In this document: positions 4,328-53,581 of the stretch, one piece after another
Layout of the letters: every line of letters begins with the position of its first letter
Position numbering within the stretch: position 1 is the first letter of the stretch
Assembly (NCBI GenBank): GCA_964598025.1
Contig: CAZRAU010000004.1
Coordinates: forward strand, 10,006 to 74,005
DNA length: 64,000 nt
Direction of reading: 5' to 3'
From: an uncultured bacterium
GTDB lineage: Bacteria > Arandabacterota > Arandabacteria > Arandabacterales > Arandabacteraceae
Translations under genes and position numbers: made by a program
Notes under the pieces: model-generated
What the model was told of the DNA's origin: nothing
The model's input: only the letters and a program-made list of their open reading frames with translations
Database searches by the model: none

Positions 4328-4334
4328 GGCACTC

Positions 4335-4754
4335 CTACCGCACAAGCAAGATGGAAGAGACAGCTTCAGACGTGACTTTGTCACTTATCGAACCCATGGT
4401 CTTGGATGCCGGATTGCCGCTGCCGGTTCTTCCTATGACGAGAAGATCGTAGCCCCCGCGCTTGAGTTCTTTGAGAATGGCGGGCACCACGCCTCCCGCA
4501 CGCACCAATTTCGTTCCGGCTTCGACCCCTTGCCGCTTGAGTTCCCTGGCCGTAGCCTCAAGGACCTTTTTCCAATCGTCTATGTAGCCCTCCTCGAGGT
4601 CGTCACTCAGATCGTCCTTGTACTGCTCCGGGATGGAGGCGACCGTCAGTACGGTGACTTCCGCCGACGCCGCCTTTGCAACAAGCGCGGCAGCACGGGC
4701 TGCCCGCACGGAAGGCTCTGAGCCGTCCGATGCCACCAGGATCCTACTGAACAT
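4335..4754 (-). CDS. Universal stress protein (UspA family)
   Basis: ILVASDGSEPS...LLVIGRTGSG...GSISDKVTSEA are hallmark UspA motifs. Confidence 0.75.
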   Translation of the reverse strand: MFSRILVASDGSEPSVRAARAAALVAKAASAEVTVLTVASIPEQYKDDLSDDLEEGYIDDWKKVLEATARELKRQGVEAGTKLVRAGGVVPAILKELKRGGYDLLVIGRTGSGNPASKTMGSISDKVTSEAVSSILLVR

Positions 4755-8790: not shown

Positions 8791-11700
8791 CTATCTTAAG
8801 ACCACCAACTTGCTTGACCGCGCTCCGGTCCTGCCTTCGGTTCTCGCCACATATATCCCGGGAGCCACTTTCCCACCCGACCGGTCGTGGAGGTTCCAAG
8901 TTACGGCCTCGGCGCCCACCGGTTTTTCCAGCCTGGCGACCAATCTCCCGTCCACCGTGAAGATCTCGACCTCCAAGCGTTCCCGGACGCCACCGAAGCA
9001 TATGGTAACATCGCCGTGCACGGGGTTGGGATGGAGACTCAAGTCTATCCGCCGCGGCTCTGCAATGGGGGCCTCGATGCCCGCCTGGGCCGGCACGGTA
9101 CAGACGAAGGTGATATCGTCTATGTACATCCCCTCGGCAACGCCGCTGTTATCGCTTGCAAACCCGAACTTGAAGGTCAGCGTATCACCTGGGGCGGCAT
9201 CCTCAATCGCCATCTCCCACTTCACCCAGTCGGTGACGATGTTGAGGGGCGCCGGATCGGTACCCTCAAGTGCGCCGCCGCTTCCGATGAAGTCAAGCGT
9301 GTCGGGGATACCGTTCACCAGCGCTACCACATAGATCCCGTCCACGCCATAGGTCGCGAAATCGTGCCAGAACCAGAATGAGAACCGGTTGTTCTCACCG
9401 GCGATGAAATCCCGGGAGACAAGGCCTCCTCCCGAGCTCGAGGGATACTGGTGGGTGCCTTCATCGCCGAAATACCAACTCATGGAATCCGAATGACACC
9501 TGTACGATGACAGATGCCAGAAACCTCCATAGGCCCAGCTGCCTTCACCCGACTCGCAATCGTCGGCAAACGTGAGATCGCCGACGGTGAAGTATATGGT
9601 GTCCTCGAAAGCGTCACCCCTGACCGTCTCTATCTCGGCTAGGAGTCTCCCCACATAGGTCCCGGGGCATGCGCCATCGACTGTCACATGGTGCAAGGTG
9701 TAGCCGGCGCAACAGGGATTGATCGTTCCGGTCTCCGTCACCGAGTCCGCCACGGCTACATATGGGTCAAGACTGGTGAGATTGACGTGCCCGGCGTCAT
9801 AGGTAAGGCCACTGTTATAGACTTCGAGGGTGAGAAGCATCGACTCACCGGGTTCGGCCGTGAAATCACCGTCTCCTCCCGACATATCGTTTATGCCGTA
9901 TGAGACCGGCGAGAGAAGCGAAGTCGCCATCACAAACGGAATCCGCGTCTGCCACAGGCCTGCTGAAGAATCCACAAGCGAAAACTCGAGGACCGCGGAT
10001 GCTCCATTGGCAAGCGAACTGTCGAACGCCACCCGGAGCGGCGTAAGCCCCGCATTCTCGGCCCCGGCCGGCATGTCCCCGAAATAAGTCACGCTGTCGA
10101 TCACGGTGCAAGACGCATCGGTGGCACGCAGCACTCCCCAGACGCCCGAATCAGGCTCGGTGCCGCAGTTCTTTATCACGACATCAAGATCCGTGATCTC
10201 GCCGGGGTTGGCCTTGGCGTCGTCCCCGTCGAGGAGGTCGATCTCCGTGACCTCCAGCAGCACACCCTCGGTCACAACCGGTATCATACCTTGATAGTGG
10301 GAGTGGTTGGGGGCCGTCACGGTGACGAGGAATGAATCCGGGGCGGCGGTCGAGACGCTCAAGCTTATCGTGCCGGCCCCGTCGGTCCTTCCCTTCTCAT
10401 ATACATCACTGCCGTTCATCACGCAGACCAGGGCATCTTCCACGAGCCCGTCATCGTCCTCTACGATGACCGCCACGTCATCCCCGGATCCCATAACACT
10501 CGAGGGAAGGGTCACATGGAGATCGGCCGGCGTGTCCGTCCAAACCGGCATTTCGGGATCGCCCAGCAGATTGACCTGGTACTCGTTCCATCTATAGACA
10601 TTCTCGTCGCCGGCGAAACTGACGAACACGGCCTTGTGCTCCGCGAGCGATGCGCCCAGAGACAATACGTCGTTGGCGAAGACCGAGCGCGCCCATTCGT
10701 GCTGGAACTTGTCCGAATAGCCGAAACCCGGGTTTCCCGGCGAGCCCCAGCCGTAACGGCAGTTACCGATGAAAGCCACACAACCGCCGTTGGGGTTGTT
10801 CACGAAGTGCTCGGCGATGCAATCCCTGTCGATGGCCGCCGGCCAGCATCCGATCGAGTTGAGGATGAAATTCCTGGGTCCGTTGGAGAGCGTATCGGCG
10901 TCGGTGTAATAGATGGTGCCGTCACCTGCGCCCATCACATACTCATTGCAATGGCCGTCGTGGATGACGAAGTTCTGTCCCTCGGACATCGCAGCCAGCA
11001 CCGACTCCCGGGACTCGTTGCCCAGGGATTCAAAAAGCTTGAGGATCGGATCGAAGCGGGGAGGGATGAAATCCTCATCGATCCGGTTGAGTCCGATCCC
11101 CGAATCCGTGTAAGGGCTCGGCCACAGTATTTCACCCGGCATGAGCATCTTCAGGACATAGTTGTCCGGCGGGTTCTTTTCGTAGGTAAGGACTTTGTTC
11201 ACAAAAACCACGGCATCGGCCGCGTTCCGTGCTGGGGCCCGGCCTACGAACATGTCGGGGTACATATCCACATTGTCGGCGACTTCGCCGAAGGGAGCGA
11301 TCCCGTTCTCGTCCCAGGTTCCATCCAGGTCGGAGTAATAGAGATCGGCGCGGATCCTGTTCCCATTGGGGCCCATCTCGGCATCCATTGCATAGACCCG
11401 GCGGCTCGGGATAAGGTCGGTATCGCTGCCCAGCAAAATCCAGACCGTGGCCCAGGTCTGGTATGCATCGATGATGAAATTCCTGATCTTGTCCTGGGTA
11501 TCGACCCCCGTGTAATTCAGGTCTATCCATTCCAGGGTCACGCACGTCGCAGGCACACCCTTCTCGGTTTTCCACTCCACCAGGGGTTCAAAGGACGACG
11601 CCAGGGAATCGACCGTGACCACCACATACTCGTAATCACCTTCTTCAAGCATTGACGCCCCAAGGAGCGCATGCACGCCGCGGGCGGCCTTGAAGCGATC

Positions 11701-12342
11701 GATATCCTCCGGGTTTGCGACCGCACGCTTCACGGCATCTCCGAAGCGACCGGGCCTATCCGGATGTGGCCTTACCGGGCGATTGGCAGGTGAAGGCTCC
11801 AGCTCGACCCGGATCTCGATCTCGCTACAAAACGCGAGATCACCTGAGACAGGATTCCACACAAACGGAGAGACATGGAAGCTCAAGAGCCTGCTGTCAC
11901 CCATAAAGCCCTGATGAACGCCGCCTATCAGCCGCTCAGGATAGAAGCGGTCGTCAAGATAGATTTCGGGCCGTCCGGTCGCCCAACCGACCGCGCTCTC
12001 CCCCAGCACGGCGGGTGGCTGAGTGGGCACTATGTCGAAGGTGCCGTCGAGCACGGTTCGCGAGAGGTAGGAAGATTCCACACCGACCACTCGCTTGTCC
12101 CAGGGAATCGCTATATGATAAGGCTGCTGCGGCAGGCCCGGCGCTCCGATGTCGGGGAGGTAGGCCGCTCCTGGCGCACTGATGTAATCGTAACCACCCA
12201 CCTTGTGGAACATAAACTCGGCCAGGTTGTTCTCAATCACGATGGTGAGTTCGTTTGCCCCGGTCTCGTCCACGGCCGTCGCACCGCAGACTCCTACGGA
12301 GACCATGAGAAGACAAGCCAGCCACACCGCAACCTTGTTCAT
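8791..12342 (-). CDS. Peptidase C25 (gingipain-like) with a T9SS C-terminal sorting domain
   Basis: RBS AAGGAG and a signal peptide. YVVVTVDSLASSFEPLVEWKTEKG matches C25. Catalytic His is in HDGHCNEY and catalytic Cys in NSIGCW. The C-terminus LHPNPVHGDVTI...EIFTVDGRLVARL...VTWNLHDRSGGKVAPGIYVAR...KLVVLR is a Por_Secre_tail. Confidence 0.8.
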   Translation of the reverse strand: MNKVAVWLACLLMVSVGVCGATAVDETGANELTIVIENNLAEFMFHKVGGYDYISAPGAAYLPDIGAPGLPQQPYHIAIPWDKRVVGVESSYLSRTVLDGTFDIVPTQPPAVLGESAVGWATGRPEIYLDDRFYPERLIGGVHQGFMGDSRLLSFHVSPFVWNPVSGDLAFCSEIEIRVELEPSPANRPVRPHPDRPGRFGDAVKRAVANPEDIDRFKAARGVHALLGASMLEEGDYEYVVVTVDSLASSFEPLVEWKTEKGVPATCVTLEWIDLNYTGVDTQDKIRNFIIDAYQTWATVWILLGSDTDLIPSRRVYAMDAEMGPNGNRIRADLYYSDLDGTWDENGIAPFGEVADNVDMYPDMFVGRAPARNAADAVVFVNKVLTYEKNPPDNYVLKMLMPGEILWPSPYTDSGIGLNRIDEDFIPPRFDPILKLFESLGNESRESVLAAMSEGQNFVIHDGHCNEYVMGAGDGTIYYTDADTLSNGPRNFILNSIGCWPAAIDRDCIAEHFVNNPNGGCVAFIGNCRYGWGSPGNPGFGYSDKFQHEWARSVFANDVLSLGASLAEHKAVFVSFAGDENVYRWNEYQVNLLGDPEMPVWTDTPADLHVTLPSSVMGSGDDVAVIVEDDDGLVEDALVCVMNGSDVYEKGRTDGAGTISLSVSTAAPDSFLVTVTAPNHSHYQGMIPVVTEGVLLEVTEIDLLDGDDAKANPGEITDLDVVIKNCGTEPDSGVWGVLRATDASCTVIDSVTYFGDMPAGAENAGLTPLRVAFDSSLANGASAVLEFSLVDSSAGLWQTRIPFVMATSLLSPVSYGINDMSGGDGDFTAEPGESMLLTLEVYNSGLTYDAGHVNLTSLDPYVAVADSVTETGTINPCCAGYTLHHVTVDGACPGTYVGRLLAEIETVRGDAFEDTIYFTVGDLTFADDCESGEGSWAYGGFWHLSSYRCHSDSMSWYFGDEGTHQYPSSSGGGLVSRDFIAGENNRFSFWFWHDFATYGVDGIYVVALVNGIPDTLDFIGSGGALEGTDPAPLNIVTDWVKWEMAIEDAAPGDTLTFKFGFASDNSGVAEGMYIDDITFVCTVPAQAGIEAPIAEPRRIDLSLHPNPVHGDVTICFGGVRERLEVEIFTVDGRLVARLEKPVGAEAVTWNLHDRSGGKVAPGIYVARTEGRTGARSSKLVVLR

Positions 12343-12562
12343 TGTCATCTCCTTTGCCGGTTCGCTCGCCAAAGCACACTTATCCCGCTCAAGGCCAAAC
12401 ACATCGCTTTATTTTACCACAAAACGGGGATGCCAACAAGGTGCGAACTCCGCGAATAGCGTAACGTATTGCGCGCGTGCGGTCTGCTTCGGGGATAGGA
12501 ACCGGCCCCCTCCGGACTATGGCAGGACCCGCGCCGACTCCCCTCACAAAACACCCGGTGCG

Positions 12563-12605
12563 TGACCCCGGGAAATTGAATTCAATTTCCAAGATCCGAC
12601 CCCGG
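12563..12605. promoter_or_regulatory. Perfect 20-bp palindrome GGAAATTGAATTCAATTTCC flanked by GACCCCGGG repeats, in the divergent intergenic region
   Basis: Seen directly. It lies 34 nt upstream of the sulfatase-like gene start and about 220 nt upstream of the divergent C25 peptidase. A near-copy is at 37088..37137. Confidence 0.4.
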
Positions 12606-12638
12606 GCAGTTGACGGGGTGGGGCGGGGGGAGTACGAT

Positions 12639-14402
12639 ATGGGTGTGCGGACACTTCGGACGGCTTTCGCGCTTATCGGTATCGTGGTGCTGGTCGCGGC
12701 GGCGGCTTTCCTGCTGTGGCCCCGGCCTAAGGCCCCCCGCTATGTCTTCCTCATTTGCCTGGATGCGGTAAGGCCCGATCACCTCGGCTGCTACGGCTAC
12801 GCCAGGGATACCAGCCCGAGAATCGACGAGCTGGCGGCTGGAGGGGCTCTCTTTGAAGATGCGATCACCCAGGCTCCCTGGACACTGCCCTCCATTGCCA
12901 CCGTGCTTTCTTCCACCTTCCCTTGCCAGCACGGGGCCAGACGAACAGAGGGCACACGCGTCGCATACAGCGGCGTCCCTCTCAACTTCGTCGAGAGGCT
13001 GAATGCGCACGGCTTTGAAACCTCCCTGTTCACCGGAGGCCTTACGCTGAGCGGCAAGGTGCCGGCGGCCGAGCTCTCGGAGGCTGCCCTGGATTGGCTG
13101 AGGCAGCGCCTCGAGTGCAAGTGCCTGATAGTGATACATCACTATGATACGCACAGCCCATACGTGGCGAGCCGTGAGTGCATAGACCGTTTGGATCCCG
13201 GCTACCAGGGGCGTTTCAACTACAGGTTCGGCGATTTCGAAATGCTCAAGCAGGCCAGGGTGGGGAGGCTTGCGGAGGTGATCGACCTATCTCCGGAAGA
13301 GCTTGCCCACATCGAGGCCCTCTATGACTGCCAGATAATGCGAGGCGACGCATCCATCGGCATGATAGCGGATTCCCTCCGGGCCTGGGGCCGGCTCGAA
13401 GAGACGATGATCATAGTCTTCGCCGATCACGGCGAGGAGTTCCTCGAGCACGGGAGCATAGATCACGGACAGACAGTACACGAGGAGACCATAAGAGTCC
13501 CTCTCATCGTCTATTGTCCGTCACTCATAACCTCTCCGAGGCGTATCGACAAACAGGTCGGGCTTATCGACATAGGCCCGACGATCCTCGATGCGGTCGG
13601 AATCGACAAACCTTCGTATTTCGAGGGCCTTAGCCTGATGCCGATGGTGTCGGACCGCTTCGACGCCCCGGGTTTGAGAGAACGCCCTTGCGGCCTGCCC
13701 ACCAGCTGCCTGATCTCGGAGTCCATCGCCCGAAGAAGCGAGAAGAAGGCCATCAGGCGCCCGCCGTGGAAGCTGATCTACGACCCGTTCTTCGGAGCCG
13801 GCGAACTCTATAACATATCCGATGATCCCTTCGAGCATAATAACCTGATCGAGGTTCAGCCGGTCACGGCCTCTCGCCTCACGGACACGTTGCTTACCAT
13901 GCAGAGATACTATCCAGGCGGCTGGTGCATAGCGTGGCGAGATCTTGCGGGGCGCGGGGCGGTGCGAGGCACGGTCCGTGTGAGTGGAAAACTCATCGAG
14001 GCTTTGAGTCACAATTTCTTCCCGGAGATAGACCTTGAAACCGACTCGCTCGTAGTGGCCGAGGATTGGAAGGCCGTTCGCTTCACCACGAGGGCCGGTC
14101 CGGACTGGCAGGGTGTAGAGATCAGGATGGAGGATAGGGCCGACGCGGATCTCACCATCACCCTGGCGGGACGGCCGCCGGCAAGGACCGCCATCGGTCA
14201 CAGCGTCTCCCAGCCGGACTTCCCGCTGGCTTTGAATCCCTCCCAGGCTAACGTTGAGCGAGCCGATCTCCACACTCTCTTCGGCAATCCCGGAGTGGAG
14301 TGCGTCGCCTATTGGATCGACCCGGGCACTGAACCGACCGCTATTCGGAAGACCCAGGCAGAACTGCGCCAGCAGTTGAAGGCGATCGGATACATCGAGT
14401 GA
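12639..14402 (+). CDS. Membrane-anchored sulfatase-fold (alkaline phosphatase superfamily) protein, paralog 1. Thr occupies the formylglycine position
   Basis: N-terminal TM helix, then FLICLDAVRPDHLGCYGY metal-binding motif. The W-T-L-P-S-I segment replaces C-x-P-x-R. A C-terminal extension of about 170 aa follows. Confidence 0.75.
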   Translation: MGVRTLRTAFALIGIVVLVAAAAFLLWPRPKAPRYVFLICLDAVRPDHLGCYGYARDTSPRIDELAAGGALFEDAITQAPWTLPSIATVLSSTFPCQHGARRTEGTRVAYSGVPLNFVERLNAHGFETSLFTGGLTLSGKVPAAELSEAALDWLRQRLECKCLIVIHHYDTHSPYVASRECIDRLDPGYQGRFNYRFGDFEMLKQARVGRLAEVIDLSPEELAHIEALYDCQIMRGDASIGMIADSLRAWGRLEETMIIVFADHGEEFLEHGSIDHGQTVHEETIRVPLIVYCPSLITSPRRIDKQVGLIDIGPTILDAVGIDKPSYFEGLSLMPMVSDRFDAPGLRERPCGLPTSCLISESIARRSEKKAIRRPPWKLIYDPFFGAGELYNISDDPFEHNNLIEVQPVTASRLTDTLLTMQRYYPGGWCIAWRDLAGRGAVRGTVRVSGKLIEALSHNFFPEIDLETDSLVVAEDWKAVRFTTRAGPDWQGVEIRMEDRADADLTITLAGRPPARTAIGHSVSQPDFPLALNPSQANVERADLHTLFGNPGVECVAYWIDPGTEPTAIRKTQAELRQQLKAIGYIE

Positions 14403-14423
14403 CCGGCTGCCCGGCGGCATCAC

Positions 14424-15776
14424 CTACTGGACGTAACCCAGGGCCTTGAGCTTGTCCTTCTCATCCCGCGTGAGCCTCTGCGTGTTGCGGCTCACTTCGT
14501 TTCCAAGCACATCATGCCGAAGTTGGCCCACCAGGGTCTCGGCCATAGAGCTTGATCTGCCGGCATAAGCGGCATCGTCGACCAGATTGATCTTCTCATC
14601 GGGGTCGTTACCTATATCGAAAAGGAAGTACTCGTTTGTCTCGGTATGATGCACCAGTTTCATGCCGTCTTCTATGATCGAGTACTTCCCCGGCATCTCC
14701 GAGAGTATGGGGCGGTCCGCCGGGCTCCCCTTGAGGAGATCGCAGCCGTGCAGAGGTCCATCCGCCTCTATCCGGGCCGCACCGAGTACCGTGGGTACGA
14801 TGTCGGCAAGCTGGGCAAAGTCCTCCCGTATGCCGGCTTCCCGAGCCCCGCGGCGGATGATCAGAGGCACGTGAATCAGGCAGTTGTAAACATACTCGCC
14901 GTGCGCGAAATAGTAGTCGTGCTCGCCCATGCCCTCCCCATGATCGGCGGTGAGAATAATCAGCGCGTTATCGTAGAGATCCAGAGCCTTGAGCTCCGCG
15001 ACCAACCGCCCGAAATGCTCGTCGAAATACCTTATCTCCCCATCGTACTGGGCGACATAGTGGTTATAGCTCCTGATGCTGTCGACTGCCTGATATGAGG
15101 GTATGCCTCCCATACCGCTTATCGTCTCGTTGATGGCCAATTCCCTATCCCCGTCGGATCCGCCGGCAAACATGGTGTCAAAGGGCGGCCGGGGGGTGTA
15201 GGGGCCATGGGGATCCTGATAATGCACCCACAGGAAAAACTTGCTCCTGTGATGAAGTCTCAGCAGGCTTATCACTGTCTCGGTAGTCTTATCGGCAATC
15301 CTCTCAGGTATACCCCTCACCAGTTCAAGGTCGTCCATCTTGTCGTCATAGTAGTCGAAGCCCTGCTCGAAACCGCCGCCCTTTCGCAGCACGAAATTGC
15401 TTACCACCCCGATAGTCCTGTACCCCTCTTCTCGCAGCCGCTCGGCCAGCGTCGTGACGGCCAGAGGCAGGTTGTCGGCGTTGTTGAATATCTTGAGTTC
15501 GTGAGGATAGTAGCCGCTCACGATGGTGCCGCAGGAAGGTCGGGTGGCCGGCGCCTGCGCGAAGCATCGTGCGAAGAGCATGCTCTCCCCGGCGAAAGCA
15601 TCGACGCTAGGTGACGTCCTGCGGTCATAGCCATAGCAACCCAGATGATCGGGCCTGAGCGTATCGACGCTTATCAATATTATGCTGGGGCCCTTTGTGC
15701 CGAATCGACCCGCCGACCAGAGCGCGGCCAGGACCGCCACCAGTGCCAAACCCGGTATGAGGTACTTTGCTTTCAT
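14424..15776 (-). CDS. Membrane-anchored sulfatase-fold protein, paralog 2 (Thr at the formylglycine position)
   Basis: TM helix, then ILISVDTLRPDHLGCYGY and an A-T-R-P-S-C motif. The core DHGEGMGEH motif is present. Confidence 0.75.
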   Translation of the reverse strand: MKAKYLIPGLALVAVLAALWSAGRFGTKGPSIILISVDTLRPDHLGCYGYDRRTSPSVDAFAGESMLFARCFAQAPATRPSCGTIVSGYYPHELKIFNNADNLPLAVTTLAERLREEGYRTIGVVSNFVLRKGGGFEQGFDYYDDKMDDLELVRGIPERIADKTTETVISLLRLHHRSKFFLWVHYQDPHGPYTPRPPFDTMFAGGSDGDRELAINETISGMGGIPSYQAVDSIRSYNHYVAQYDGEIRYFDEHFGRLVAELKALDLYDNALIILTADHGEGMGEHDYYFAHGEYVYNCLIHVPLIIRRGAREAGIREDFAQLADIVPTVLGAARIEADGPLHGCDLLKGSPADRPILSEMPGKYSIIEDGMKLVHHTETNEYFLFDIGNDPDEKINLVDDAAYAGRSSSMAETLVGQLRHDVLGNEVSRNTQRLTRDEKDKLKALGYVQ

Positions 15777-15948
15777 TGCCGTTGCGCTTCCGTCCTCATC
15801 ATCTAAGGTAAGTACTGCAGCGCGAGGATGCAATCTGCATGTGCCGGGTCACCGAGAATGCCCATGGGCCGGCCGCCGGCGGCAAAGGTCCGCATGCGTC
15901 CACACACGCAGTCAAACCCGACAAAGCTCAAGTCCTTGATGTGTGAGT

Positions 15949-16905: not shown

Positions 16906-17411
16906 CTACCGGTATTCCTCGCCGACGGATGCCCTGGCGGCTACCGCCTCGGACTTCTCCAAACGGGTTGCTGAGGCGGTGGCCACACCCGGCCAACCCA
17001 CTGTGGTTTCGGCGAAACGATCGCTTTGGCTGGATGCTTGTTCGGCGTTTCGCCAGTATCCGGATCGCGCCAGCAGAAAGCCCGACACCACAAACGCCCC
17101 GGCCAGCACGAACCCGAAAACAGGGCCCTCCGCCCGGACGTTGACAATGTCATCGGCTTCTATGGACGCTCCAATGCAACCGAACAAGGCCAGGAATGCA
17201 CCGAGATACATGCGCCAACCGACCGAGTAGCGCTTCCCGGCAGCCCAATAGAGCGAAGCCCCTCCGGCGATGAACCATACCGCCATCGTCGCCCCCAGAT
17301 ATGTGTCGTCCCGCACATCCTGGCTGAGGTCCTGAAGCATGGCCCCCAAGCTGGCCACTCCGAATATGATCAGGATGACACTTAACACAGCAAGAGCCTT
17401 GAATCTCATGG
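16906..17411 (-). CDS. Hypothetical 4-TM membrane protein (168 aa)
   Basis: RBS GGGGAGGG 6 nt before the ATG. Four hydrophobic helices. No recognisable family. Confidence 0.4.
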
Positions 17412-17625
17412 TACCCTCCCCTTGGGGACCGAGCCCGCACCGTGGGGTGAGCATCCGCCCGCCACAGAAGACCCGGTCTCTTGTCTTAGGACAGCCGGAC
17501 CCGATTCCACCTGTTGTTCTTGATCGAATCCGCCCTAAGTAGTAGATCGTCCCGGAAAAACCTCGCCTTAGACGAAATAGCATGGAGCATTTCGGCTCTC
17601 GAACCGCGGCGACAGGACCCGCGAG

Positions 17626-17651
17626 GCAGACCACGTCGGGGGTGGAACCCC
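17626..17651. repeat. REP-like palindromic element, type I (GTCGGGGGTGGAACCCCGAC followed by GCTACG)
   Basis: 7-bp stem with a 6-nt loop. An identical copy is 104 nt downstream. Related copies are at 43304 and 62295 (inverted). Confidence 0.6.
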
Positions 17652-17729: not shown

Positions 17730-17755
17730 GCAATACCCGTCGGGGGTGGAACCCC
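17730..17755. repeat. REP-like palindromic element, type I, second direct copy
   Basis: Identical 26 nt to 17626..17651. It is embedded in a repeat block of about 150 nt that recurs inverted at 62160..62320. Confidence 0.6.
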
Positions 17756-17962
17756 GACGCTACGCGGACCCCGTCAGCCACGGGATGGGCCACGCCATGC
17801 CGAGCGGGTGGCGCGGAGGGAGGGCCTCCCGCCGCCCAGACTGGCAAGGAGGACGGTGGGAGCCCGGTACACTATCTCCCGCCCGAAATCTCCCGCACAG
17901 GCGATCAGTTCTTGCTCGGTCGGGAAGTTCTTGACCACTTCGAATTCCTCCCCACTCGGGAG

Positions 17963-18433
17963 CTTGCGCGGGCCTCAGTCAACGGCCGGAGGCGGAGAAA
18001 TCGGCTCCACCGGATAACCGCCTCTACCCCACGCGAGGTAGCCTCCCTCCAGCGCGTACACTTCCTTCCAACCCTGTTTGACAAGCTCCAGCGCCACACG
18101 GACGCTTGAGGCCTCATCCGGTCAGGTGCAGTAGACCACAACCGGCATGCCCCTGGGAACCTCTGAGATGTGGTTCTCGATATCATGAGGCGGGACCCGC
18201 ACGGCATCCGGTATCCTCGCGACCGCCAGATCCCAGGCGGCTTCACTTCGTGCGTCGACGAAAGCGATTGTCTCGCCCTTGTCCAGCCTCTCCTTGACCT
18301 GCTCCGCGGTGATCCGTGCTATTTCCACCTGAGACACCACAGGCTTCCGGCTGCACGCTCCAAGCAAAACCACGACAAGCATGAGTCCGCAAAACAGCGA
18401 CAACACATTTCGTCCTACCGGCTCTTGATGCAT
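17963..18433 (-). CDS. Rhodanese-like sulfurtransferase lipoprotein with an in-frame TGA at the catalytic position (candidate selenocysteine, otherwise a pseudogene)
   Basis: RBS GGAGGG and an LLGACS lipobox. The rhodanese fold aligns to GlpE, with TGA (18119..18121) exactly where the active-site Cys sits: VVVYCT-[TGA]-PDEASS-VRVALELVKQGWKEVYALEGGYLAW. A hairpin GCGUC-CGUGU-GGCGC lies 13 nt downstream. Confidence 0.5.
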
Positions 18434-18611
18434 ATCGCACCCTCCATCCGAACCGTGCCAATGCCGTCGGGTCTTCGCATCAGCCGGTCCACCCTTATGG
18501 GAGTGATGGCGCTGCGTACCCGGCCCGAACCTATTCGATCTCTGTGGCGGCGTCCCACGGCCGACAGCGCGATGCTCACGGACTCAAGCGTATTATGCCC
18601 GGACTGCAATG

Positions 18612-20024
18612 TCAATCGTGCCTCAGGGCCTTCACCGGATCGACACGTGCCGCCCGCCCCGCCGGATAGAGGCCGGCCAGGAGGCTGACCACTATCGAAA
18701 ACCCGACCGCACCCAGGATCAGCCAGAGCGGGAAGTAGAAGAGATTCACCGGGTCCTCGCCGGGCGGCATGAACCTTATGTTGACCACCATGTTCGCCAC
18801 TCTCGTGACCAGCCAACCCAGAATCAGTCCGAAGACGGCCCCCACGGCTCCGATAGTGGCCGCCTCCGCGAAGAAGATGGTTCTTATTTCCGCATCGCTC
18901 GCCCCGATGGCCTTCATTATTCCTATCTCGCGCGTGCGTTCGAGGATGGACATTACCATGGTGTTGACGATACCCAGGGCGGCCACGAATAGGGCAACGG
19001 TTCCGATGGCGGCAAGCACCGAGTCGACAATGATGAAACCCCGCCGTATCTCGGAGAGCTGGTCCGAGATGGACAAAACCGAGAGCCCCATATCGTCCAC
19101 AAGGACGGCCCTGACACTCTCCATGTCCGTCATGTCCTTTACACGGACATAGATCGAGCTGTACATACCTTCACCACCACCCTCCCCGAGAAGATCCCAC
19201 ACACTGGAGAAGCCCAATCTCGGGATGCTGTCGGCGGCCTCTATGGGGACAAAGATGCCTCCATGAAATCCCTGCCCGTGGAAATTGGTGGACTGTTTGA
19301 GGATTCCGGTGATCTTGAACTCCCCGGCAGCTTCCCGAAATGCCCCACCCCCGGGCATCAACCTCGCGAGGGCGCTCATCGGACTTCCGGAGAGATCCAT
19401 CACAGCCGTTACGACACTCACCGTCCCACCGATCACCGAGCCCGGTTCCACAAGCTCCATATGGGAAGCCGAGTCTTCAGGGGCTGCCTGGGCCTCCGCC
19501 CCGGGGTCGACCACGGACAGTCCCATGTCCTCAAGGGTTTCCATCCGAATGACCGCAGCGCGGTCGCCATCGCCGGCAAAATACTCGCCGTACTCAAGGT
19601 CTTTGAAAGGTCTGTACCTGCCCATGGAAGCCGGGAGGCCCCGGAGCGTGGTTCTGGTCTCATGCCCGTCCATCTCCAGGCGTACCGGGAAACTTATCTC
19701 CGGAAAGGCCATGTCAACACCGGGAATCCCGCGGATCGCAATCACGGTTGAATCGGTCAGAGGCGTGAGCGGCTTCCGCATAAGATCGGCGATGTCATCA
19801 GGGTCGTTGATCTCTTCGACATCAGCGGCCGTTACAAAGAGGCTTGTGAACAGATCGCTGTCTCTGAACGCTTCTGTTATGTTCTTCTGCATACCCGTGC
19901 CGAAGGACACCATCGAGGTCAGCGCTCCGATGCCTACAACGACCCCCAGCACCGTAAGCACGGTCCTCAGCCTGGTGCGAAGCAGATTCTCCAGCCCCAG
20001 CTTGATCATGTCCGGAGAGGTCAT
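18612..20024 (-). CDS. ABC transporter permease, FtsX family (MacB/LolC-E-like, with a large periplasmic domain)
   Basis: N-terminal TM helix, periplasmic domain of about 250 aa, C-terminal FtsX 3-TM bundle. Overlaps the ATPase gene by 4 nt. Confidence 0.8.
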   Translation of the reverse strand: MTSPDMIKLGLENLLRTRLRTVLTVLGVVVGIGALTSMVSFGTGMQKNITEAFRDSDLFTSLFVTAADVEEINDPDDIADLMRKPLTPLTDSTVIAIRGIPGVDMAFPEISFPVRLEMDGHETRTTLRGLPASMGRYRPFKDLEYGEYFAGDGDRAAVIRMETLEDMGLSVVDPGAEAQAAPEDSASHMELVEPGSVIGGTVSVVTAVMDLSGSPMSALARLMPGGGAFREAAGEFKITGILKQSTNFHGQGFHGGIFVPIEAADSIPRLGFSSVWDLLGEGGGEGMYSSIYVRVKDMTDMESVRAVLVDDMGLSVLSISDQLSEIRRGFIIVDSVLAAIGTVALFVAALGIVNTMVMSILERTREIGIMKAIGASDAEIRTIFFAEAATIGAVGAVFGLILGWLVTRVANMVVNIRFMPPGEDPVNLFYFPLWLILGAVGFSIVVSLLAGLYPAGRAARVDPVKALRHD

Positions 20025-20716
20025 TGGCTTGCCCCTCCCCCCGAGCGTTCCACTATGCGGCCGTCAAGCAGGCGAATCATGCTGTCGGAGACCGTCCGCG
20101 CGACACCCTCCTCGTGCGTGACCAGCAGCACCGTGAGACCCCGCTCCCGGTTCAGGTCGCAGACGATTCTCATGATCTCATCGGCAGTGCCGCTGTCGAG
20201 ATTGCCTGTAGGCTCGTCCAGAAGCAGCAGATCCGGCTCGTTCGCCAGCGCCCGGGCTATGGCGACACGTTGGGCCTCGCCTCCTGACAGCTCGGCGGGT
20301 TTGTGATTCATTCTGTCCGCAAGACCCACCTCTTCAAGCAGCGCGGCAGCCCGCTGCTTCCTCTCCCCTCTCGGGAACCGCCCGAAGGTCAGAGCCAGAA
20401 TGACGTTCTCGATTGCCGTCCTGTGGCCGATGAGATTGAAAGACTGAAACAGCATACCCACAGAGCGGCGGCGGTGACCGGCAAGTTCCGCGCGCTTCAT
20501 AGCAGCCAGATCGGCTTCCCGGAAGAGGATGTGTCCGGAAGACGGCGTATCGAGGCCCCCTATGAGATTCAGAAGCGTGGATTTGCCCGATCCCGACCTG
20601 CCGACGATGGAAACGAACTGACCTTCATCCACCTCGAAGGTGATATCCCGGAGAGCGGGGATCTCGATGTCGCCCTTCGAGTAAGTCTTGGATAGTCCCT
20701 TAACCCTTAGCATCAA
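20021..20716 (-). CDS. ABC transporter ATP-binding protein (LolD/MacB-type)
   Basis: Walker A GRSGSGKST, signature LSGGEAQRVAIARAL, Walker B LLLLDEPT and H-loop. Confidence 0.85.
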   Translation of the reverse strand: MMLRVKGLSKTYSKGDIEIPALRDITFEVDEGQFVSIVGRSGSGKSTLLNLIGGLDTPSSGHILFREADLAAMKRAELAGHRRRSVGMLFQSFNLIGHRTAIENVILALTFGRFPRGERKQRAAALLEEVGLADRMNHKPAELSGGEAQRVAIARALANEPDLLLLDEPTGNLDSGTADEIMRIVCDLNRERGLTVLLVTHEEGVARTVSDSMIRLLDGRIVERSGGGASQ

Positions 20717-25981: not shown

Positions 25982-27118
25982 CTAAAGCACCATCTTGCCT
26001 TTATCCATTACCAGCGTGGGTTTTCCCCCGGCGCCCCTTATTTCGACCGTCGGGTTTCTTATCAGGCCGTCCAGGTGTATGAGGGCCTTGGCGTCCTCGT
26101 CGTAGTTGGACCCGATAGCTATGTGGCAAGTCCTGAATACCTTCTCATCCTCGAGCATGTTGCCCACGATCCGGGCTTTCTCATTGAGCCCGATCCCGAG
26201 CTCCCCGAGGTTCCGGACGTTTTCCAGATAACCCGGAAGGTCCCGCTTGGCCACCTTGCCTTCGGCGGCGAACTTGCGTGTCGATTTCCGTGCCCTTTCG
26301 AGCGTGGCCTTCAGCTGCCGGGCTTCACTCCCACCCAGGATCTCCGTCACAAGATTGCGCCTGACCTTGATCCTTATGGGCTCCTTAATCAGTATGACTC
26401 CCTTGTCCGACGAGATACAGCCGTCATAAACCAGCGTACCTTCACCGCTTCCCAGCTCCGGTGAGATGTACATCTCGCCGGCCGGCAAGTTGCCGCCGGT
26501 CCCGGGCTTGGAGAAATTGCCGTCATCGGTGAAGGCCTTCCGTCCCCGGAGACCGATCACGAGATCGGTTCCCAGATCCGAGGTGATCCGTGCCGTGCGT
26601 GCCTTGTCAAATGCCTTCTTGAGCTTGGCCGAGACCTTGCGGAGCGCCCCGTAATCGACCGGCACGGTCCTCTGAAACATGTTCACCGTGACCGAGGGAG
26701 ACCAGAAGGACCTGGTCTTCTTGCTTCCCAACAGGTAGTGGAAGATATGATCATAGGTCTTCTTGCCGTACCGGTACTTCTTCTCCATGCCGAAACGATC
26801 CTTACCGAGCTTCGCATGACTCACGGAAACAGCGATCTCAGGCTCGGCTCTGAGGGCATGGATAACCGAGTCATTCGCAAAATCAAGCTGAGACTTCACC
26901 GGCTGGAAGAGAAGCGTGGGCAGAGCCCCGGCTTCCACAGCGGCGTCGTAAAGGGCTTCCGATATGAGCCGTACTTCAGGATTGGGGTTCGTGATAATAA
27001 GAAAGCGCTCACCTCTTCTAGCCTTCAGGACCTCGCCCACGGCGACTCGCGCGGCATTGGTAAGCCTGGGTGAGATCCGTTCGATATCACTGAATCTCAC
27101 TGGGTTCCTGCTTGCCAT
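25982..27118 (-). CDS. Aminopeptidase, peptidase family M29 (AmpS/PepS-like)
   Basis: GGNLPAGEMYISP and CHIAIGSNYDE...IHLDGLI match the M29 thermophilic metalloprotease pattern. Confidence 0.65.
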   Translation of the reverse strand: MASRNPVRFSDIERISPRLTNAARVAVGEVLKARRGERFLIITNPNPEVRLISEALYDAAVEAGALPTLLFQPVKSQLDFANDSVIHALRAEPEIAVSVSHAKLGKDRFGMEKKYRYGKKTYDHIFHYLLGSKKTRSFWSPSVTVNMFQRTVPVDYGALRKVSAKLKKAFDKARTARITSDLGTDLVIGLRGRKAFTDDGNFSKPGTGGNLPAGEMYISPELGSGEGTLVYDGCISSDKGVILIKEPIRIKVRRNLVTEILGGSEARQLKATLERARKSTRKFAAEGKVAKRDLPGYLENVRNLGELGIGLNEKARIVGNMLEDEKVFRTCHIAIGSNYDEDAKALIHLDGLIRNPTVEIRGAGGKPTLVMDKGKMVL

Positions 27119-27293
27119 CGAAGACCCTCCTTCCCGCTTGGGGTGTCACCTTGTTTCAGGTGTCCGTCGAGAAACCACTCCATTCTATTTAATACTTCCC
27201 GAACCGCTAGTCCAGAGCTGGTGGAATCTCCCGCGTTGCTCTATGGCCTCAAGGCTTTTGACATTGGGCGGCGGCTTTGCTAATTTCTCTTTG

Positions 27294-29495
27294 ATGGGTA
27301 AGTGGATAGGCATAGTCGCGCTTGCGCTGGCAGTGATCGTGGTCGTGCTCGTCCTTGGGCGAGGACCGGCGCGATATAACGTACTCCTGATCAGCATCGA
27401 CACGCTCAGACCCGACCACCTGGGATGCTACGGCTACGAGCACATAAGAACCCCCAATATCGACGGGCTGGCCGAGGAGGGGTTCCTGTTTCTCGATGTT
27501 TCCGCCACTGTTCCCCTCACCCTGCCGTCGCATACGTCGCTGCTGACCGGGCTCCTGCCCATTACAAGCGGAGTGCGCGACAACGGTGCGTTCGTGCTCT
27601 CCGATCAATTCACGACCCTGGCGGAAGTGCTTTCCGAGCAGGAATACTCCACCGGGGCTTTTGTGGCGACATTCGTGCTGGACTCCCGTTTCGGTCTGGA
27701 TCAGGGTTTTGAGGTTTACAACGACGACATGGGGTCCCAGGATAAGAAGAGCGCCTTTCAGTGGCCGGAGCGACGGGCGGATGCCGTGAACGACACGGCA
27801 CTCAACTGGTTCGCGGGGGTTCAGGAACCTTTCTTTGCCTTCGTGCATTATTATGACCCCCACGATCCCTACTCGCCCCCCCAGCCCTTTGCCGACGCCT
27901 ACACCGGGAACCTCTATGACGGCGAGATTGCATACACCGACTCCATGCTGGGTGAACTCCTGAAGGCTCTCAAAGCGAATGACCTCTATGACAACACGCT
28001 TATAGTGCTGGTTTCGGACCACGGCGAGGGCCTTGACGAGCACAATGAGGCGGGGCATGGTGTCCTTGTTTACCAGAGTACGATCAAGGTGGTCCTCATG
28101 GTCAAGCTGCCGAAAGCCTACGCTCTGGGCGGCGACCTGAAGCCGCCAGCCAAGATAGACTACCCCGTGCAGCTCATAGACGTATTCCCGACAGTGCTCG
28201 AACTCGTGGATGTCAGGCCGGATCACAATGTCGACGGTGTGAGCCTGGTTCCGGTGCTCAGAGGGGATCGGATAGACCCGAGGATGCTCTATTTCGAAAG
28301 CATGTATCCCTACTTCTACTTCAGGTGGAGTCCGTTGAGAGGTGTGCGCCACAACAACTGGAAGTACATCCTCGCTCCCGAAGAGGAGCTTTACGACATC
28401 GCCCAGGACCCCGGAGAGCTCAATAATCTAGCATCCGCCCAGCCTGAACGGGTCGGCGAGATGAGAGCCAATCTGATGGTGATGGCCGCACGGGAGACCG
28501 AGGCGCTTGAGTCAGCGCGGACCTCAATGTCCCAGGAGGATGTGCACAAGCTCATGGCTCTGGGGTACCTGGCCGGGGGGCGTCCCAATCTGCCTGAGCA
28601 CATCGAACCCGCGGGGCGGGACCCGAAGTACATGATCGGAGATCTCAATACGTATCTGTGGAGCGGGCGGAAGGCTTTCGACAACGGCGATTTCGACAGG
28701 GCCGCGGGTCTATTCGGGCAAATGGTACTGCTCGATCCGGGCAACCCGCAGGCCCATGTCCATCTGGCCAAAGCCCTGCTGGAAATGGGAGAAACCGACA
28801 TAGCCCAGGCCCAGTTCAGGAAGGCGATCGAGATAGATTCCACTCACAGCAGTGCTTTCTTCCCCATGGCCAACATCATGCGACAGCAAGGCAATCTGGA
28901 CAGGGCGCTCTTCTATCTCCGGCTGGGATCAAGCCTATCAGTGGAAACCCCCGATGTTCTCTCCAGCATGGGGGCCATCTTTGTCGAAAAGGGAGAACCC
29001 GACAGCGCCATCCAGGTATTGGAAAAGGCACTTGAACTGGACCCCAAAGACCCCATGGCCCTCCAGAACATGGGCCAGGCTTACATTTACAAGAACGAGC
29101 CGGAGAAGGCCATGCGGTGGTTCCGCGCGACGCTCGAGGTCCAGCCGCAGAATGTGAAGGCGTTGGGAAGCATCGCGCGGGTATTCATCGAGCGAGGGCA
29201 GCCCGACAGCACGATCTATTACTTCGAGCGCGCACGCGAGGCCGGTGCGGCCGATGCCACGATCCTGGCCAATTTGGGGAGTGCCTATCGCCAGAAGGGC
29301 ATGGCCGCCGAGGCCGGGGAAGCCTTCGAGTCGGCACTTCAGTATGAGCCCGACAATACAATGGCCCTGTTCGGACTCGCAGCGGTCCGGGCCCAGGAGG
29401 GCAAGACCGAGGAGTCGATAGCTCTTCTCGAACGGATTCTAGAGATCGATCCGGATTTCCAGCCTGCGTTACGGGCCCTCCAGGCCCTCAGATAG
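27294..29495 (+). CDS. Membrane-anchored sulfatase-fold protein (paralog 3, Thr at the formylglycine position) fused to a C-terminal TPR-repeat domain
   Basis: TM helix, then LLISIDTLRPDHLGCYGY and an L-T-L-P-S-H motif. The DHGEGLDEH motif is present. The C-terminal half of about 300 aa is TPR repeats (AHVHLAKALLEMGE..., ALQNMGQAYIY...). Confidence 0.75.
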   Translation: MGKWIGIVALALAVIVVVLVLGRGPARYNVLLISIDTLRPDHLGCYGYEHIRTPNIDGLAEEGFLFLDVSATVPLTLPSHTSLLTGLLPITSGVRDNGAFVLSDQFTTLAEVLSEQEYSTGAFVATFVLDSRFGLDQGFEVYNDDMGSQDKKSAFQWPERRADAVNDTALNWFAGVQEPFFAFVHYYDPHDPYSPPQPFADAYTGNLYDGEIAYTDSMLGELLKALKANDLYDNTLIVLVSDHGEGLDEHNEAGHGVLVYQSTIKVVLMVKLPKAYALGGDLKPPAKIDYPVQLIDVFPTVLELVDVRPDHNVDGVSLVPVLRGDRIDPRMLYFESMYPYFYFRWSPLRGVRHNNWKYILAPEEELYDIAQDPGELNNLASAQPERVGEMRANLMVMAARETEALESARTSMSQEDVHKLMALGYLAGGRPNLPEHIEPAGRDPKYMIGDLNTYLWSGRKAFDNGDFDRAAGLFGQMVLLDPGNPQAHVHLAKALLEMGETDIAQAQFRKAIEIDSTHSSAFFPMANIMRQQGNLDRALFYLRLGSSLSVETPDVLSSMGAIFVEKGEPDSAIQVLEKALELDPKDPMALQNMGQAYIYKNEPEKAMRWFRATLEVQPQNVKALGSIARVFIERGQPDSTIYYFERAREAGAADATILANLGSAYRQKGMAAEAGEAFESALQYEPDNTMALFGLAAVRAQEGKTEESIALLERILEIDPDFQPALRALQALR

Positions 29496-39930: not shown

Positions 39931-40034
39931 TGCGTGCCCCTTCTGCAGTGCAGTCCGCCGCCATACATCGTGCTGTTCCGGGTGCCTGGAAATACCAGGT
40001 AAACAGATTCCGGATCTCCACCCAAGGCTAAGTC

Positions 40035-43203: not shown

Positions 43204-43303
43204 CGCCCTCATCCATCCGCATTCCAGCCTGAATGCAGCCAAGCCATCCTCTCATTTAAGATAACATATGGCGGCCTGGGCTTAAAGCGGTGAACCCTAC
43301 GCT

Positions 43304-44486: not shown

Positions 44487-44502
44487 CCGATTGGAGTCCT
44501 TT

Positions 44503-53498: not shown

Positions 53499-53581
53499 AC
53501 TCCGCTTTCCAGGTCTCGCATTCACTCAGTCACGACCCGATCTCAAACCACTGCATCCCGGATGCGGCCCGCCCATGTCGG

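What the first reader, a model, noticed from the sequence alone, without database searches (positions are those of the whole stretch)
17963..18433. Rhodanese lipoprotein with TGA exactly at the catalytic residue plus a downstream hairpin: candidate selenoprotein
The gene has a strong RBS and a lipobox. It encodes a complete single-domain rhodanese that is interrupted by one in-frame TGA at 18119..18121. Aligned to GlpE-type rhodaneses, the TGA falls precisely on the catalytic Cys position: a U-plus-six-residue loop, then a 13-residue helix, then the EGGYLAW motif. The adjacent Cys would be two residues out of register. A hairpin GCGUC-CGUGU-GGCGC, extendable by CUC.A/U.GAG, starts 13 nt after the UGA and has G and U in its apical loop, as bacterial SECIS elements do. 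Rhodanese-related sulfurtransferases are a known, rare bacterial selenoprotein family. The gene sits directly downstream of the FtsX/ABC-ATPase pair on the same strand, so it may be co-transcribed.
Basis: partly seen in the sequence, partly recalled or inferred. Interest (0 to 1): 0.65.

Follow-up and report, generated by a model that had tools for sequence, protein, structure and literature searches.

The report
Selenocysteine rhodanese lipoprotein with SECIS hairpin
This small gene for a membrane-anchored rhodanese enzyme almost certainly reads its internal TGA "stop" as the rare amino acid selenocysteine, guided by a conserved RNA hairpin; it is a real but already-described kind of selenoprotein that gene callers routinely cut in half.

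Summary
Four distinct orthologs (72-79% identity), one distant homolog and 120 of 120 metagenomic pattern matches carry TGA at the same codon, followed by a conserved in-frame C-terminal half. 108 of the 150 best 50%-identity cluster representatives are called as truncated at exactly this site. Full-length relatives mostly have Cys there (YCT-C-PxEAS). A 5-6 bp hairpin starts 15 nt after the UGA and is conserved in 110 distinct sequences. It shows compensatory changes at synonymous positions and an invariant loop G, and two Cys-codon homologs lack it. TGA is an ordinary stop for 17 of 33 window genes, so the recoding is site-specific. The best family match is NCBIfam NF041203, "rhodanese-related (seleno)protein", the CxU form listed in selenoproteome reviews, but the score (103.6 bits) is below the 115-bit cut-off. 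Two points remain open: no Sec machinery is visible in the window, and sequence alignments are split on whether U104 or the invariant C102 is the canonical catalytic residue. Verdict: a genuine new member of a known selenoprotein kind.

The parts
17975..18433 (-). Complete selenoprotein CDS: 152 codons including U104, plus the terminal TGA stop (17977..17975)
   Evidence: Translation. Orthologs end at the same codon 153 with TGA or TAA, and window-versus-ortholog identity falls to about 0.3 after it.
18441..18445 (-). Shine-Dalgarno GGAGG, 7 nt before the ATG
   Evidence: Read directly from the sequence.
18353..18433 (-). Lipoprotein signal peptide (residues 1-27) ending in lipobox L-G-A-C27 (18364..18353)
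   Evidence: Sequence motif. LLGAC is invariant in 5 orthologs. Distant TGA-truncated homologs also carry an N-terminal hydrophobic segment followed by Cys. No dedicated predictor was run.
18029..18310 (-). Rhodanese domain (residues 42-135), spanning the TGA
   Evidence: Pfam PF00581, E=7.5e-14, 52.5 bits against a cut-off of 22.2. A Cys-homolog model matches solved rhodaneses at TM 0.74-0.82.
18122..18130 (-). C102-T103-U104 (TGC ACC TGA): the CxU active-site motif; Sec codon at 18124..18122
   Evidence: TGA sits at this codon in all orthologs and in 120/120 metagenome matches. Cys is at this position in 12 of 22 full-length relatives.
18090..18106 (-). SECIS core hairpin AGCGUC-CGUGU-GGCGCU (6 bp including one U.G; 5-nt loop at 18100..18096)
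   Evidence: Conserved in 110 distinct sequences. 89.5% of cells are paired, against 21-57% for slid controls. Pair 27-39 is CG93/GC6/UA6/GU3/UG1. Loop G32 is invariant. The hairpin is absent in two Cys-codon homologs.
18086..18110 (-). Possible lower-stem extension (CUC 18110-18108 with GAG 18088-18086) around the core hairpin
   Evidence: MFE fold of the window sequence. It is not conserved in register across the family, so it is weak.
18612..20716 (-). Upstream same-strand MacB/Lol-type ABC pair (FtsX+MacB_PCD permease 18612..20024; ABC ATPase 20021..20716); context only
   Evidence: Pfam. The same order is seen in close orthologs L001-L003 and L009 but not in the distant homolog L010.

Best explanation
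The gene encodes a secreted, lipid-anchored, single-domain rhodanese in which UGA codon 104 is translated as selenocysteine. Shown: the UGA, the downstream reading frame and an RNA hairpin 15 nt after the UGA are all conserved across a very large family, and the hairpin is maintained by compensatory substitutions. Inferred from the established bacterial mechanism: SelB carrying Sec-tRNA(Sec) binds this hairpin (a bacterial SECIS) on the translating mRNA and delivers Sec to the ribosome when the UGA is in the A site. Without that delivery, translation stops and releases a 103-residue fragment. The product carries a C102-x-U104 motif at the junction between the central beta-strand and the active-site helix. 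The most likely chemistry, which is inferred, is that Sec is the nucleophile that accepts or transfers sulfane sulfur (or selenium), or attacks a disulfide or persulfide. The invariant Cys two residues upstream would then act as resolving residue through a selenenylsulfide. The lipoprotein signal implies the protein works outside the cytoplasm, at a membrane surface.
For: - Conserved TGA: it is at the same codon in 4 distinct orthologs from independent JGI, ENA and Logan assemblies and in a named MAG. All have 48 conserved in-frame codons and the same terminal stop. The roughly 42%-identical homolog L010 shows the same.
- Selection: substitutions downstream of the TGA are concentrated at third codon positions (for example 11/16, 15/22 and 16/21), and conservation collapses after the real stop.
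- Family size: in the exhaustive HMMER search, 108 of the 150 best 50%-identity cluster representatives end in [YF]-C-x, exactly at this site.
- Cys homologs: full-length relatives read YCT-C-PxEAS.
- Hairpin: RNAalifold finds only this structure. There is covariation at synonymous positions, 0 of 500 shuffles reach the score, and the loop G is invariant. The hairpin is missing in TGC/TGT homologs (+3.0 and +2.3 against a median of -9.2 kcal/mol).
- Normal stop use: TGA ends 17 of 33 Pfam-supported ORFs in the window and ends this gene itself.
- Known family: the best NCBIfam hit is NF041203 'rhodanese-related (seleno)protein', E=5.6e-30. Reviews list a CxU rhodanese selenoprotein (PMC13188914, PMC9312934).
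Against: - No selA, selB or selD and no tRNA of any kind are in the 64-kb window. The rest of the genome could not be reached.
- No other selenoprotein candidate in the window gives independent evidence for Sec decoding.
- In the single window sequence the hairpin is no more stable than shuffled sequence and contains a U.G pair.
- There is no Rfam match.
- The NF041203 score is below the curated cut-off.
- The chemistry (nucleophile, resolving Cys, substrate) is inference only.
Confidence: 0.9

Rival explanations
1. SECIS-guided recoding of this UGA inserts cysteine (or another amino acid) rather than selenocysteine, for example through a tRNA(Sec)-like tRNA(Cys) with a UCA anticodon and a SelB paralog, as proposed for some Deltaproteobacteria and Nitrospirae.
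For: Such selC* tRNA(Cys)/SelB* systems are described in PMC5389517. No Sec machinery could be checked for this genome. Cys is the natural alternative at this position.
Against: That system has been found only in genomes that also carry a complete Sec apparatus. It is rare and there is no sign of it here. The closest curated family is annotated as a selenoprotein. A plain TGC codon would give Cys without any special machinery, as many relatives show.
Confidence: 0.04
2. The TGA is a true stop: a truncated pseudogene, a sequencing or assembly error, or a deliberately short 103-residue product followed by a non-coding remnant.
For: Gene callers in every database call the 103-residue fragment. 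There is no Sec machinery in the window.
Against: The same TGA appears in independent assemblies and in 120/120 family members. The downstream 48 codons are under purifying selection and complete the rhodanese domain. Half a rhodanese domain would not fold. The hairpin shows covariation.
Confidence: 0.02
3. UGA is reassigned genome-wide (to Trp or Gly, as in code 4 or code 25 organisms), so this is an ordinary sense codon.
For: None beyond the in-frame TGA itself.
Against: TGA is the commonest stop among 33 Pfam-supported ORFs in the window (17 TGA, 13 TAG, 3 TAA). The gene's own terminal stop is TGA, and conservation ends there. Homologs align Cys, not Trp or Gly, at the site.
Confidence: 0.005
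4. The conserved hairpin is only a by-product of coding for the conserved peptide S-A-R-V-A and has no RNA function; read-through happens by another route.
For: The hairpin lies entirely in coding sequence for a conserved helix. Most stem positions never vary.
Against: The varying pair (columns 27-39) links two third-codon positions that change together: AGC/GCG to AGU/GCA or GCG/GCC, with 15 double changes and 1 broken pair in 110 sequences. The stem survives amino-acid replacements (R to S, V to L/M). Cys-codon homologs have more variable residues here and no hairpin.
Confidence: 0.03

Closest known systems
NCBIfam NF041203 'rhodanese_LYCAU', rhodanese-related (seleno)protein. [quoted passage not shown]
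   Same: Single rhodanese domain with Sec two residues after an invariant Cys (C-x-U). It is by far the best HMM hit (E=5.6e-30), covering profile positions 11-125 of 126.
   Different: The score of 103.6 bits is below the 115-bit equivalog cut-off. The motif is VYC-T-U rather than LYC-A-U. The window protein has an N-terminal lipoprotein signal that lies outside the aligned part of the model. Seven other YCTU members, including VTT/DedA and protease fusions, also fall below the cut-off at 74-110 bits.
GlpE/PspE-type single-domain thiosulfate sulfurtransferases (E. coli; PDB 1GMX, 2JTQ)
   Same: Same fold and size. The spacing from the U position to the GG..W motif (25 residues) equals the spacing from the catalytic Cys in canonical rhodaneses (direct count). 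PspE is likewise extracytoplasmic (from established knowledge).
   Different: GlpE NCBIfam scores only 40.7 bits against a cut-off of 102. The loop is acidic (P-D-E-A-S-S) rather than the usual neutral or basic anion-binding loop. There is an extra invariant Cys at -2. In the AF2 model of a Cys homolog the helix starts right after the U-equivalent.
Bacterial SECIS elements (E. coli fdhF type; bSECISearch consensus)
   Same: A stem-loop in the coding sequence shortly after the UGA, with its loop starting 21 nt after the UGA and a conserved G near the start of the apical loop. The consensus ranges quoted are from my recollection of Zhang & Gladyshev 2005 and were not re-read here.
   Different: The conserved stem is very short and GC-rich (4-6 bp) and has no conserved bulged U. 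There is no Rfam model match.
TsoB rhodanese/DsbD-fusion selenoprotein (NF045694) and the other Sec-rhodanese forms (UxxS, UxxG) listed in PMC13188914
   Same: Rhodanese domain with Sec in the active-site region.
   Different: The match is only weak (19.6 bits against a cut-off of 805), and the Sec motif and architecture are different.

Membership tests
Bacterial selenoprotein gene (UGA-Sec with SECIS) | In-frame UGA conserved at the same codon in orthologs, with the downstream frame conserved as protein | tested here: met
   all orthologs and 120/120 family hits. Third-position bias downstream of the TGA.
Bacterial selenoprotein gene (UGA-Sec with SECIS) | Homologs with Cys aligned to the UGA position | tested here: met
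   Cys in 12 of 22 full-length relatives (YCT-C-P.E). The others have S, D, T, G or L.
Bacterial selenoprotein gene (UGA-Sec with SECIS) | Stem-loop immediately downstream of the UGA, at SECIS distance, supported by conservation or covariation | tested here: met
   89.5% of cells paired, covariation 0.119 against 0.050 for shuffles (0/500), invariant loop G; absent in the Cys-codon forms.
Bacterial selenoprotein gene (UGA-Sec with SECIS) | selA, selB, selC (tRNA-Sec) and selD present in the same genome | not testable with these tools
   None in the 64-kb window. The source contig and genome are not retrievable.
Bacterial selenoprotein gene (UGA-Sec with SECIS) | UGA is not a general sense codon in the organism | tested here: met
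   TGA terminates 17 of 33 Pfam-supported ORFs.
NCBIfam NF041203 rhodanese_LYCAU (equivalog) | Whole-protein score at or above the curated cut-off (115 bits) | tested here: not met
   103.6 bits with U replaced by C, 96.7 bits with X. It is still the best hit, about 60 bits ahead of the next.
NCBIfam NF041203 rhodanese_LYCAU (equivalog) | C-x-U motif in the rhodanese active-site region | tested here: met
   C102-T103-U104. The CxU motif is listed for this family in PMC13188914.
Rhodanese domain (Pfam PF00581) | Score above the gathering threshold over the full domain | tested here: met
   52.5 bits against 22.2, profile positions 1-99 of 102.
Rhodanese domain (Pfam PF00581) | Rhodanese alpha/beta fold | tested here: met
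   Tested on the Cys homolog P0087, not on the window protein itself: pLDDT 95.8, Foldseek TM 0.74-0.82 to solved rhodaneses.
Catalytically canonical rhodanese sulfurtransferase (GlpE-like) | Catalytic Cys/Sec as the first residue of a 6-residue active-site loop after the central strand | tested here: inconclusive
   U104 aligns ungapped with the catalytic Cys of 6mxv, 3iwh and 1yt8-d2. C102 aligns with it, with a 2-residue gap, in 3tp9, 6pfz and 6mxv-d1. The AF2 model has the helix starting right after the U-equivalent.
Catalytically canonical rhodanese sulfurtransferase (GlpE-like) | GlpE equivalog score (NF001195, cut-off 102 bits) | tested here: not met
   40.7 bits.
Bacterial lipoprotein | Signal peptide with a lipobox [LVI][ASTVIG][GAS]C | tested here: met
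   Motif read from the sequence: R8 in the n-region, a hydrophobic core, then L24-G25-A26-C27. It is invariant in the orthologs. No SignalP-type predictor was available, and processing was not tested.

The most novel reading that the evidence does not exclude
The 'YCT-U-PxEA(S/T)S' proteins may form a very large, mostly unannotated selenoprotein clade distinct from the curated NF041203 equivalog, since every member tested falls below its cut-off. In this reading they are not classical sulfurtransferases but C-x-U selenol/thiol redox modules. Three observations point that way: Sec sits at the N-cap of the active-site helix, the loop is acidic, and the module is recruited to several extracytoplasmic or membrane contexts (the lipoprotein here, DedA/VTT fusions, trypsin-like protease fusions). 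The window gene would then be the lipoprotein representative of an uncharacterised envelope redox or sulfur/selenium-trafficking system, possibly linked to the adjacent MacB/Lol-type ABC transporter.
Probability: 0.25. Interest if true: 0.5.

Novelty: new member of a known kind. Interest (0 to 1): 0.33.

Why it matters
For annotation, this gene and most of its relatives in public databases are called as about 103-residue fragments: 108 of the 150 best cluster representatives end at the UGA. That means a widespread selenoprotein family is systematically mis-annotated, and selenium use is under-counted in sediment and soil bacteria. For biology, it adds an extracytoplasmic, lipid-anchored form to the CxU Sec-rhodaneses, whose substrate and role are unknown. 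It also provides a clean, covariation-supported minimal SECIS (a 4-6 bp GC stem with an NGNNU loop) that could improve SECIS detection. It does not change what is known about how Sec is decoded.

Tried and rejected
I used a profile of the N-terminal fragments instead.
- The genome-contig scan with a 12-sequence alignment had no searchable stretch. A 5-sequence alignment found one unclassified MAG, so taxonomy stays unresolved. T9SS and peptidase C25 genes hint at the FCB group.
- A crude six-frame scan for TGA-split ORFs was uninformative in this 59% GC window. Restricting it to unannotated stretches found nothing credible.
- Pfam annotation of 38 window ORFs found no SelA, SelB or SelD. The FdhA/NuoG-like fusion is uninterrupted, so it gives no second selenoprotein.
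- ARAGORN found no tRNA in the window and no tRNA-Sec in 60 family loci.
- Rfam gave nothing at either the gathering or the E<=10 threshold.
- Attempts to reach the 75-kb source contig through genes near the window ends returned only short contigs or no exact match.
- Single-sequence fold statistics do not support the hairpin. I rejected them as a criterion in favour of covariation.
- The promoter scan found nothing between the FtsX gene and the rhodanese gene, so co-transcription is neither supported nor excluded.
- Sequence and profile alignments could not decide between C102 and U104 as the canonical catalytic residue. The fold-search tools give no residue-level superposition.

Full report
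**1. What is in the sequence.**
The feature is a minus-strand gene.
- ATG is at 18433..18431, preceded by GGAGG at 18445..18441 with a 7-nt spacer.
- Translation gives 103 codons, a TGA at 18124..18122, 48 more in-frame codons, and a terminal TGA at 17977..17975.
Its 3' boundary overshoots the stop by 12 nt.
- The N-terminus has a charged n-region (R8), a hydrophobic core, and a lipobox L24-G25-A26-C27.
- With U replaced by C, Pfam places one Rhodanese domain (PF00581, E=7.5e-14) over residues 42-135, straddling the TGA.
- Upstream on the same strand are a MacB_PCD+FtsX permease (18612..20024) and an ABC ATPase (20021..20716).

**2. The TGA is conserved, not an accident.**
- The indexed homology search returned only five proteins, all 102-103 residues long and covering 68% of the query.
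- Their DNA, from independent JGI, ENA, NCBI and Logan assemblies, shows four distinct orthologs at 72-79% identity. Each has TGA at the same codon, 48 conserved in-frame codons, and a stop (TGA or TAA) at the same final codon.
- The only named genome with a close relative has the same arrangement. It is an unclassified MAG, JALGWN010000022.1, isolate Meg22_46_Bin_89.
- Downstream of the TGA, differences fall mainly at third codon positions (for example 2/3/11, 2/5/15 and 1/4/16 by codon position against the window).
- After the real stop, identity between the window and its orthologs drops to about 0.3.
- A lipoprotein homolog at about 42% identity (L010) also reads ...IVAYCT-TGA-PHEASSARVVRELIEHGWKDVHALAGGFDAW....

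**3. It belongs to a very large TGA-containing family.**
- I ran an exhaustive HMMER search with a profile of the N-terminal fragments. It found 1048 cluster representatives (50% identity clusters) at E<=1e-3.
- Of the best 150, 108 end in [Y/F]-C-x at their own C-terminus, and 100 of those end in 'YCT'. Gene callers have truncated them exactly at the window's TGA site.
- Full-length relatives most often carry Cys at that position (12 of 22), for example P0124 VVVYCT-C-PNEASSVVAAV. The rest have S, D, T, G or L. The Cys two residues upstream is nearly invariant.
All 120 are rhodanese genes. 114 show the complete downstream P-x-E-A...GG..W half in frame. The other six are cut by contig ends or, in one case (L048), frameshifted.
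- Architectures include standalone forms of about 110 residues, lipoproteins, VTT/DedA-rhodanese fusions and trypsin-like protease-TM-rhodanese fusions.

**4. The hairpin is a real, selected RNA structure.**
- In the window alone, AGCGUC-CGUGU-GGCGCU (18106..18090) is no more stable than shuffled sequence: z = -0.08 over 71 nt and z = -1.29 over 29 nt.
- The comparative picture is different. In an ungapped alignment of 110 distinct sequences (A4, UGA at columns 7-9), RNAalifold predicts only this hairpin.
- For the 6-bp stem (columns 25-30 with 36-41), 89.5% of cells are standard pairs. When the partner is slid by 1-3 columns, the figure is 21-57%.
- The covariation score is 0.119, against 0.050 ± 0.006 in shuffles (0 of 500 reach it).
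- The informative pair is 27-39, which links two third-codon positions. It is CG in 93 sequences, GC in 6, UA in 6, GU/UG in 4, and unpaired in 1.
- Loop position 2 (G32) is invariant and loop position 5 is U in at least 90%.
- The stem survives amino-acid replacements such as R to S and V to L/M.
- In two Cys-codon homologs (TGC in L134, TGT in L135) the equivalent columns pair at only 3 of 6 and 2 of 6 positions. Forced into the same structure they give +3.0 and +2.3 kcal/mol. The 110 TGA forms have a median of -9.2, and the window gives -6.5.
- The loop begins 21 nt after the UGA, which fits what I recall of the bacterial SECIS consensus.

**5. Alternatives.**
- Genome-wide UGA reassignment is excluded. 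TGA is the most frequent stop among 33 Pfam-supported ORFs in the window (17 TGA, 13 TAG, 3 TAA), and it terminates this gene.
- Pseudogene and sequencing error are excluded by sections 2-3.
- A SECIS-guided Cys insertion system (selC* tRNA-Cys with SelB*) has been described (PMC5389517). It cannot be excluded without the genome, but it is rare and was found only alongside a complete Sec apparatus.

**6. What could not be shown.**
- The window holds no tRNA and no Rfam family.
- Among 38 annotated ORFs there is no SelA, SelB or SelD.
- No further TGA-split gene was found.
- The FdhA/NuoG-like 1249-residue fusion at 48022..51771 is uninterrupted.
- The 75-kb source contig and the rest of the genome were not retrievable.
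- The existence of Sec machinery in this organism is therefore inferred, not shown.

**7. Comparison with what is known.**
- Rhodanese-related sulfurtransferases have been listed as bacterial selenoproteins since the Sargasso Sea analysis (PMC1088965) and the Olavius symbiont analysis (PMC1976440).
- Recent reviews list a form with a CxU motif, tied to NCBIfam NF041203 (PMC13188914, PMC9312934).
- Scanning NCBIfam gives NF041203 'rhodanese_LYCAU, rhodanese-related (seleno)protein' as by far the best hit (E=5.6e-30, profile positions 11-125 of 126). However, the score is 103.6 bits, below the curated 115-bit equivalog cut-off.
- Seven other YCTU members score 74-110 bits, also below the cut-off.
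- GlpE scores 40.7 bits against a cut-off of 102.
- The window protein is therefore a close relative of a curated Sec-rhodanese family and shares its defining CxU motif. By NCBI's own threshold it is not a strict member.

**8. Is the Sec 'exactly' at the catalytic position?**
- The spacing from U104 to the GG..W motif is 25 residues, the same as from the catalytic Cys in canonical rhodaneses.
- Pairwise alignments to 6mxv, 3iwh and 1yt8 domain 2 put their catalytic Cys on U104 without gaps.
- Profile alignments to 3tp9, 6pfz and 6mxv domain 1 instead match the invariant C102 and delete 'T-U'.
- An AlphaFold model of the Cys-form homolog P0087 is confident (pLDDT 95.8). It shows the central strand ending at Y66, a C67-T68-C69 turn, and the helix starting at residue 70.
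- The U-equivalent is therefore modelled at the N-cap of the active-site helix, with the invariant Cys at the strand end. The fold itself is a standard rhodanese domain (TM 0.74-0.82 to solved structures).
- My reading is that Sec is the reactive residue of a C-x-U pair in the active site. Whether the geometry matches the classical 6-residue cradle loop is unresolved.
- The conserved acidic loop (P-x-E) is unusual for an anion-binding sulfurtransferase.

**9. Context.**
- The ABC-FtsX-rhodanese order is shared by the close orthologs but not by the distant lipoprotein homolog L010. It may therefore reflect relatedness only.
- The 178-nt gap before the gene has no predicted promoter or terminator. 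A terminator-like hairpin lies about 215 nt downstream of the stop, at 17759..17738.
- The window otherwise encodes four sulfatases, a GH31 glycosidase, a C25 peptidase, a T9SS-tailed protein and fermentative or redox enzymes. This suggests an anaerobic polymer-degrading bacterium, possibly of the FCB group.

**10. Verdict.**
This is a genuine selenoprotein gene of a described kind: a CxU Sec-rhodanese, here in a lipoprotein form. It is mis-called as a fragment in the databases. Confidence in Sec decoding is about 0.9, limited by the missing machinery check. Interest is moderate to low for a specialist. The main value lies in annotation, the evident size and diversity of the family, and a well-supported minimal SECIS.

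Noticed in passing
Database-wide: Most members of this rhodanese family in public protein collections are called as fragments ending at the UGA: 108 of the 150 best 50%-identity cluster representatives. The family seems far more common in soil and sediment metagenomes than 'rare' suggests.
   Followed up: partly
L018, L021, L023 (VTT/DedA fusions); L013, L031 (protease fusions): The same TGA-containing rhodanese module occurs as the C-terminal domain of DedA/VTT membrane proteins, and of secreted trypsin-like (HtrA-type) proteases followed by a TM segment.
   Followed up: partly
L048, around 12499-12527 (minus strand): One family member keeps the YCT-TGA-PNEASS start but then loses the rhodanese frame (…PRVALILRTKATFASARGPRH…). 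This is probably a frameshifted pseudogene or an assembly error.
   Followed up: no
L021 10186-10261; L051 4104-4179; L094 3365-3440: In one subgroup (the PGEATSA... forms) a tRNA-Asn(GTT) gene lies about 150-250 nt downstream of the Sec-rhodanese gene.
   Followed up: no
window 35419..37083 (+): A full-length acetate kinase (Pfam E=1e-147) is fused to a C-terminal response-regulator receiver domain. It sits directly after a hybrid receiver/histidine-kinase gene at 34337..35467.
   Followed up: no
window 48022..54100 (-): A NuoE-like ORF (about 53.6-54.1 kb), a NuoF-like ORF (51720..53525) and a 1249-residue fusion lie together. The fusion combines 2Fe-2S, GltD-like FAD/NAD, Nqo3-type 4Fe-4S and molybdopterin-oxidoreductase domains (48022..51771). 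It looks like an electron-bifurcating formate-dehydrogenase-type or NuoG-type complex. The ORF is uninterrupted, so there is no Sec codon.
   Followed up: partly
window 12477..15833, 26964..29495, 38134..40053, 43515..44567: There are four sulfatase genes, one fused to a long TPR region, plus a radical-SAM gene that could be an anaerobic sulfatase-maturating enzyme, next to a GH31 glycosidase (40405..43242). This suggests degradation of sulfated polysaccharides.
   Followed up: no
window 8791..12402 (-) and 57902..59809 (+): A 1203-residue C25 (gingipain-type) peptidase and a metallo-beta-lactamase-fold protein with a Por_Secre_tail (T9SS sorting domain) point to an FCB-group-like organism. 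The only named relative is an unclassified 'MAG: bacterium'.
   Followed up: no
window 17738..17759 (-): A terminator-like GC-rich hairpin (CGTCGGGG-TTCCAC-CCCCGACG followed by a weak T-tract) lies about 215 nt downstream of the rhodanese stop, ahead of the next minus-strand ORF (16906..17634, no Pfam match).
   Followed up: no
window 3257..4384 (-): A 375-residue ORF matches only the C-terminal half of the acetate/butyrate kinase profile (residues 177-330 against profile 181-338, E=3e-18). It may be a divergent ASKHA-family kinase, or its start may be mis-set.
   Followed up: no
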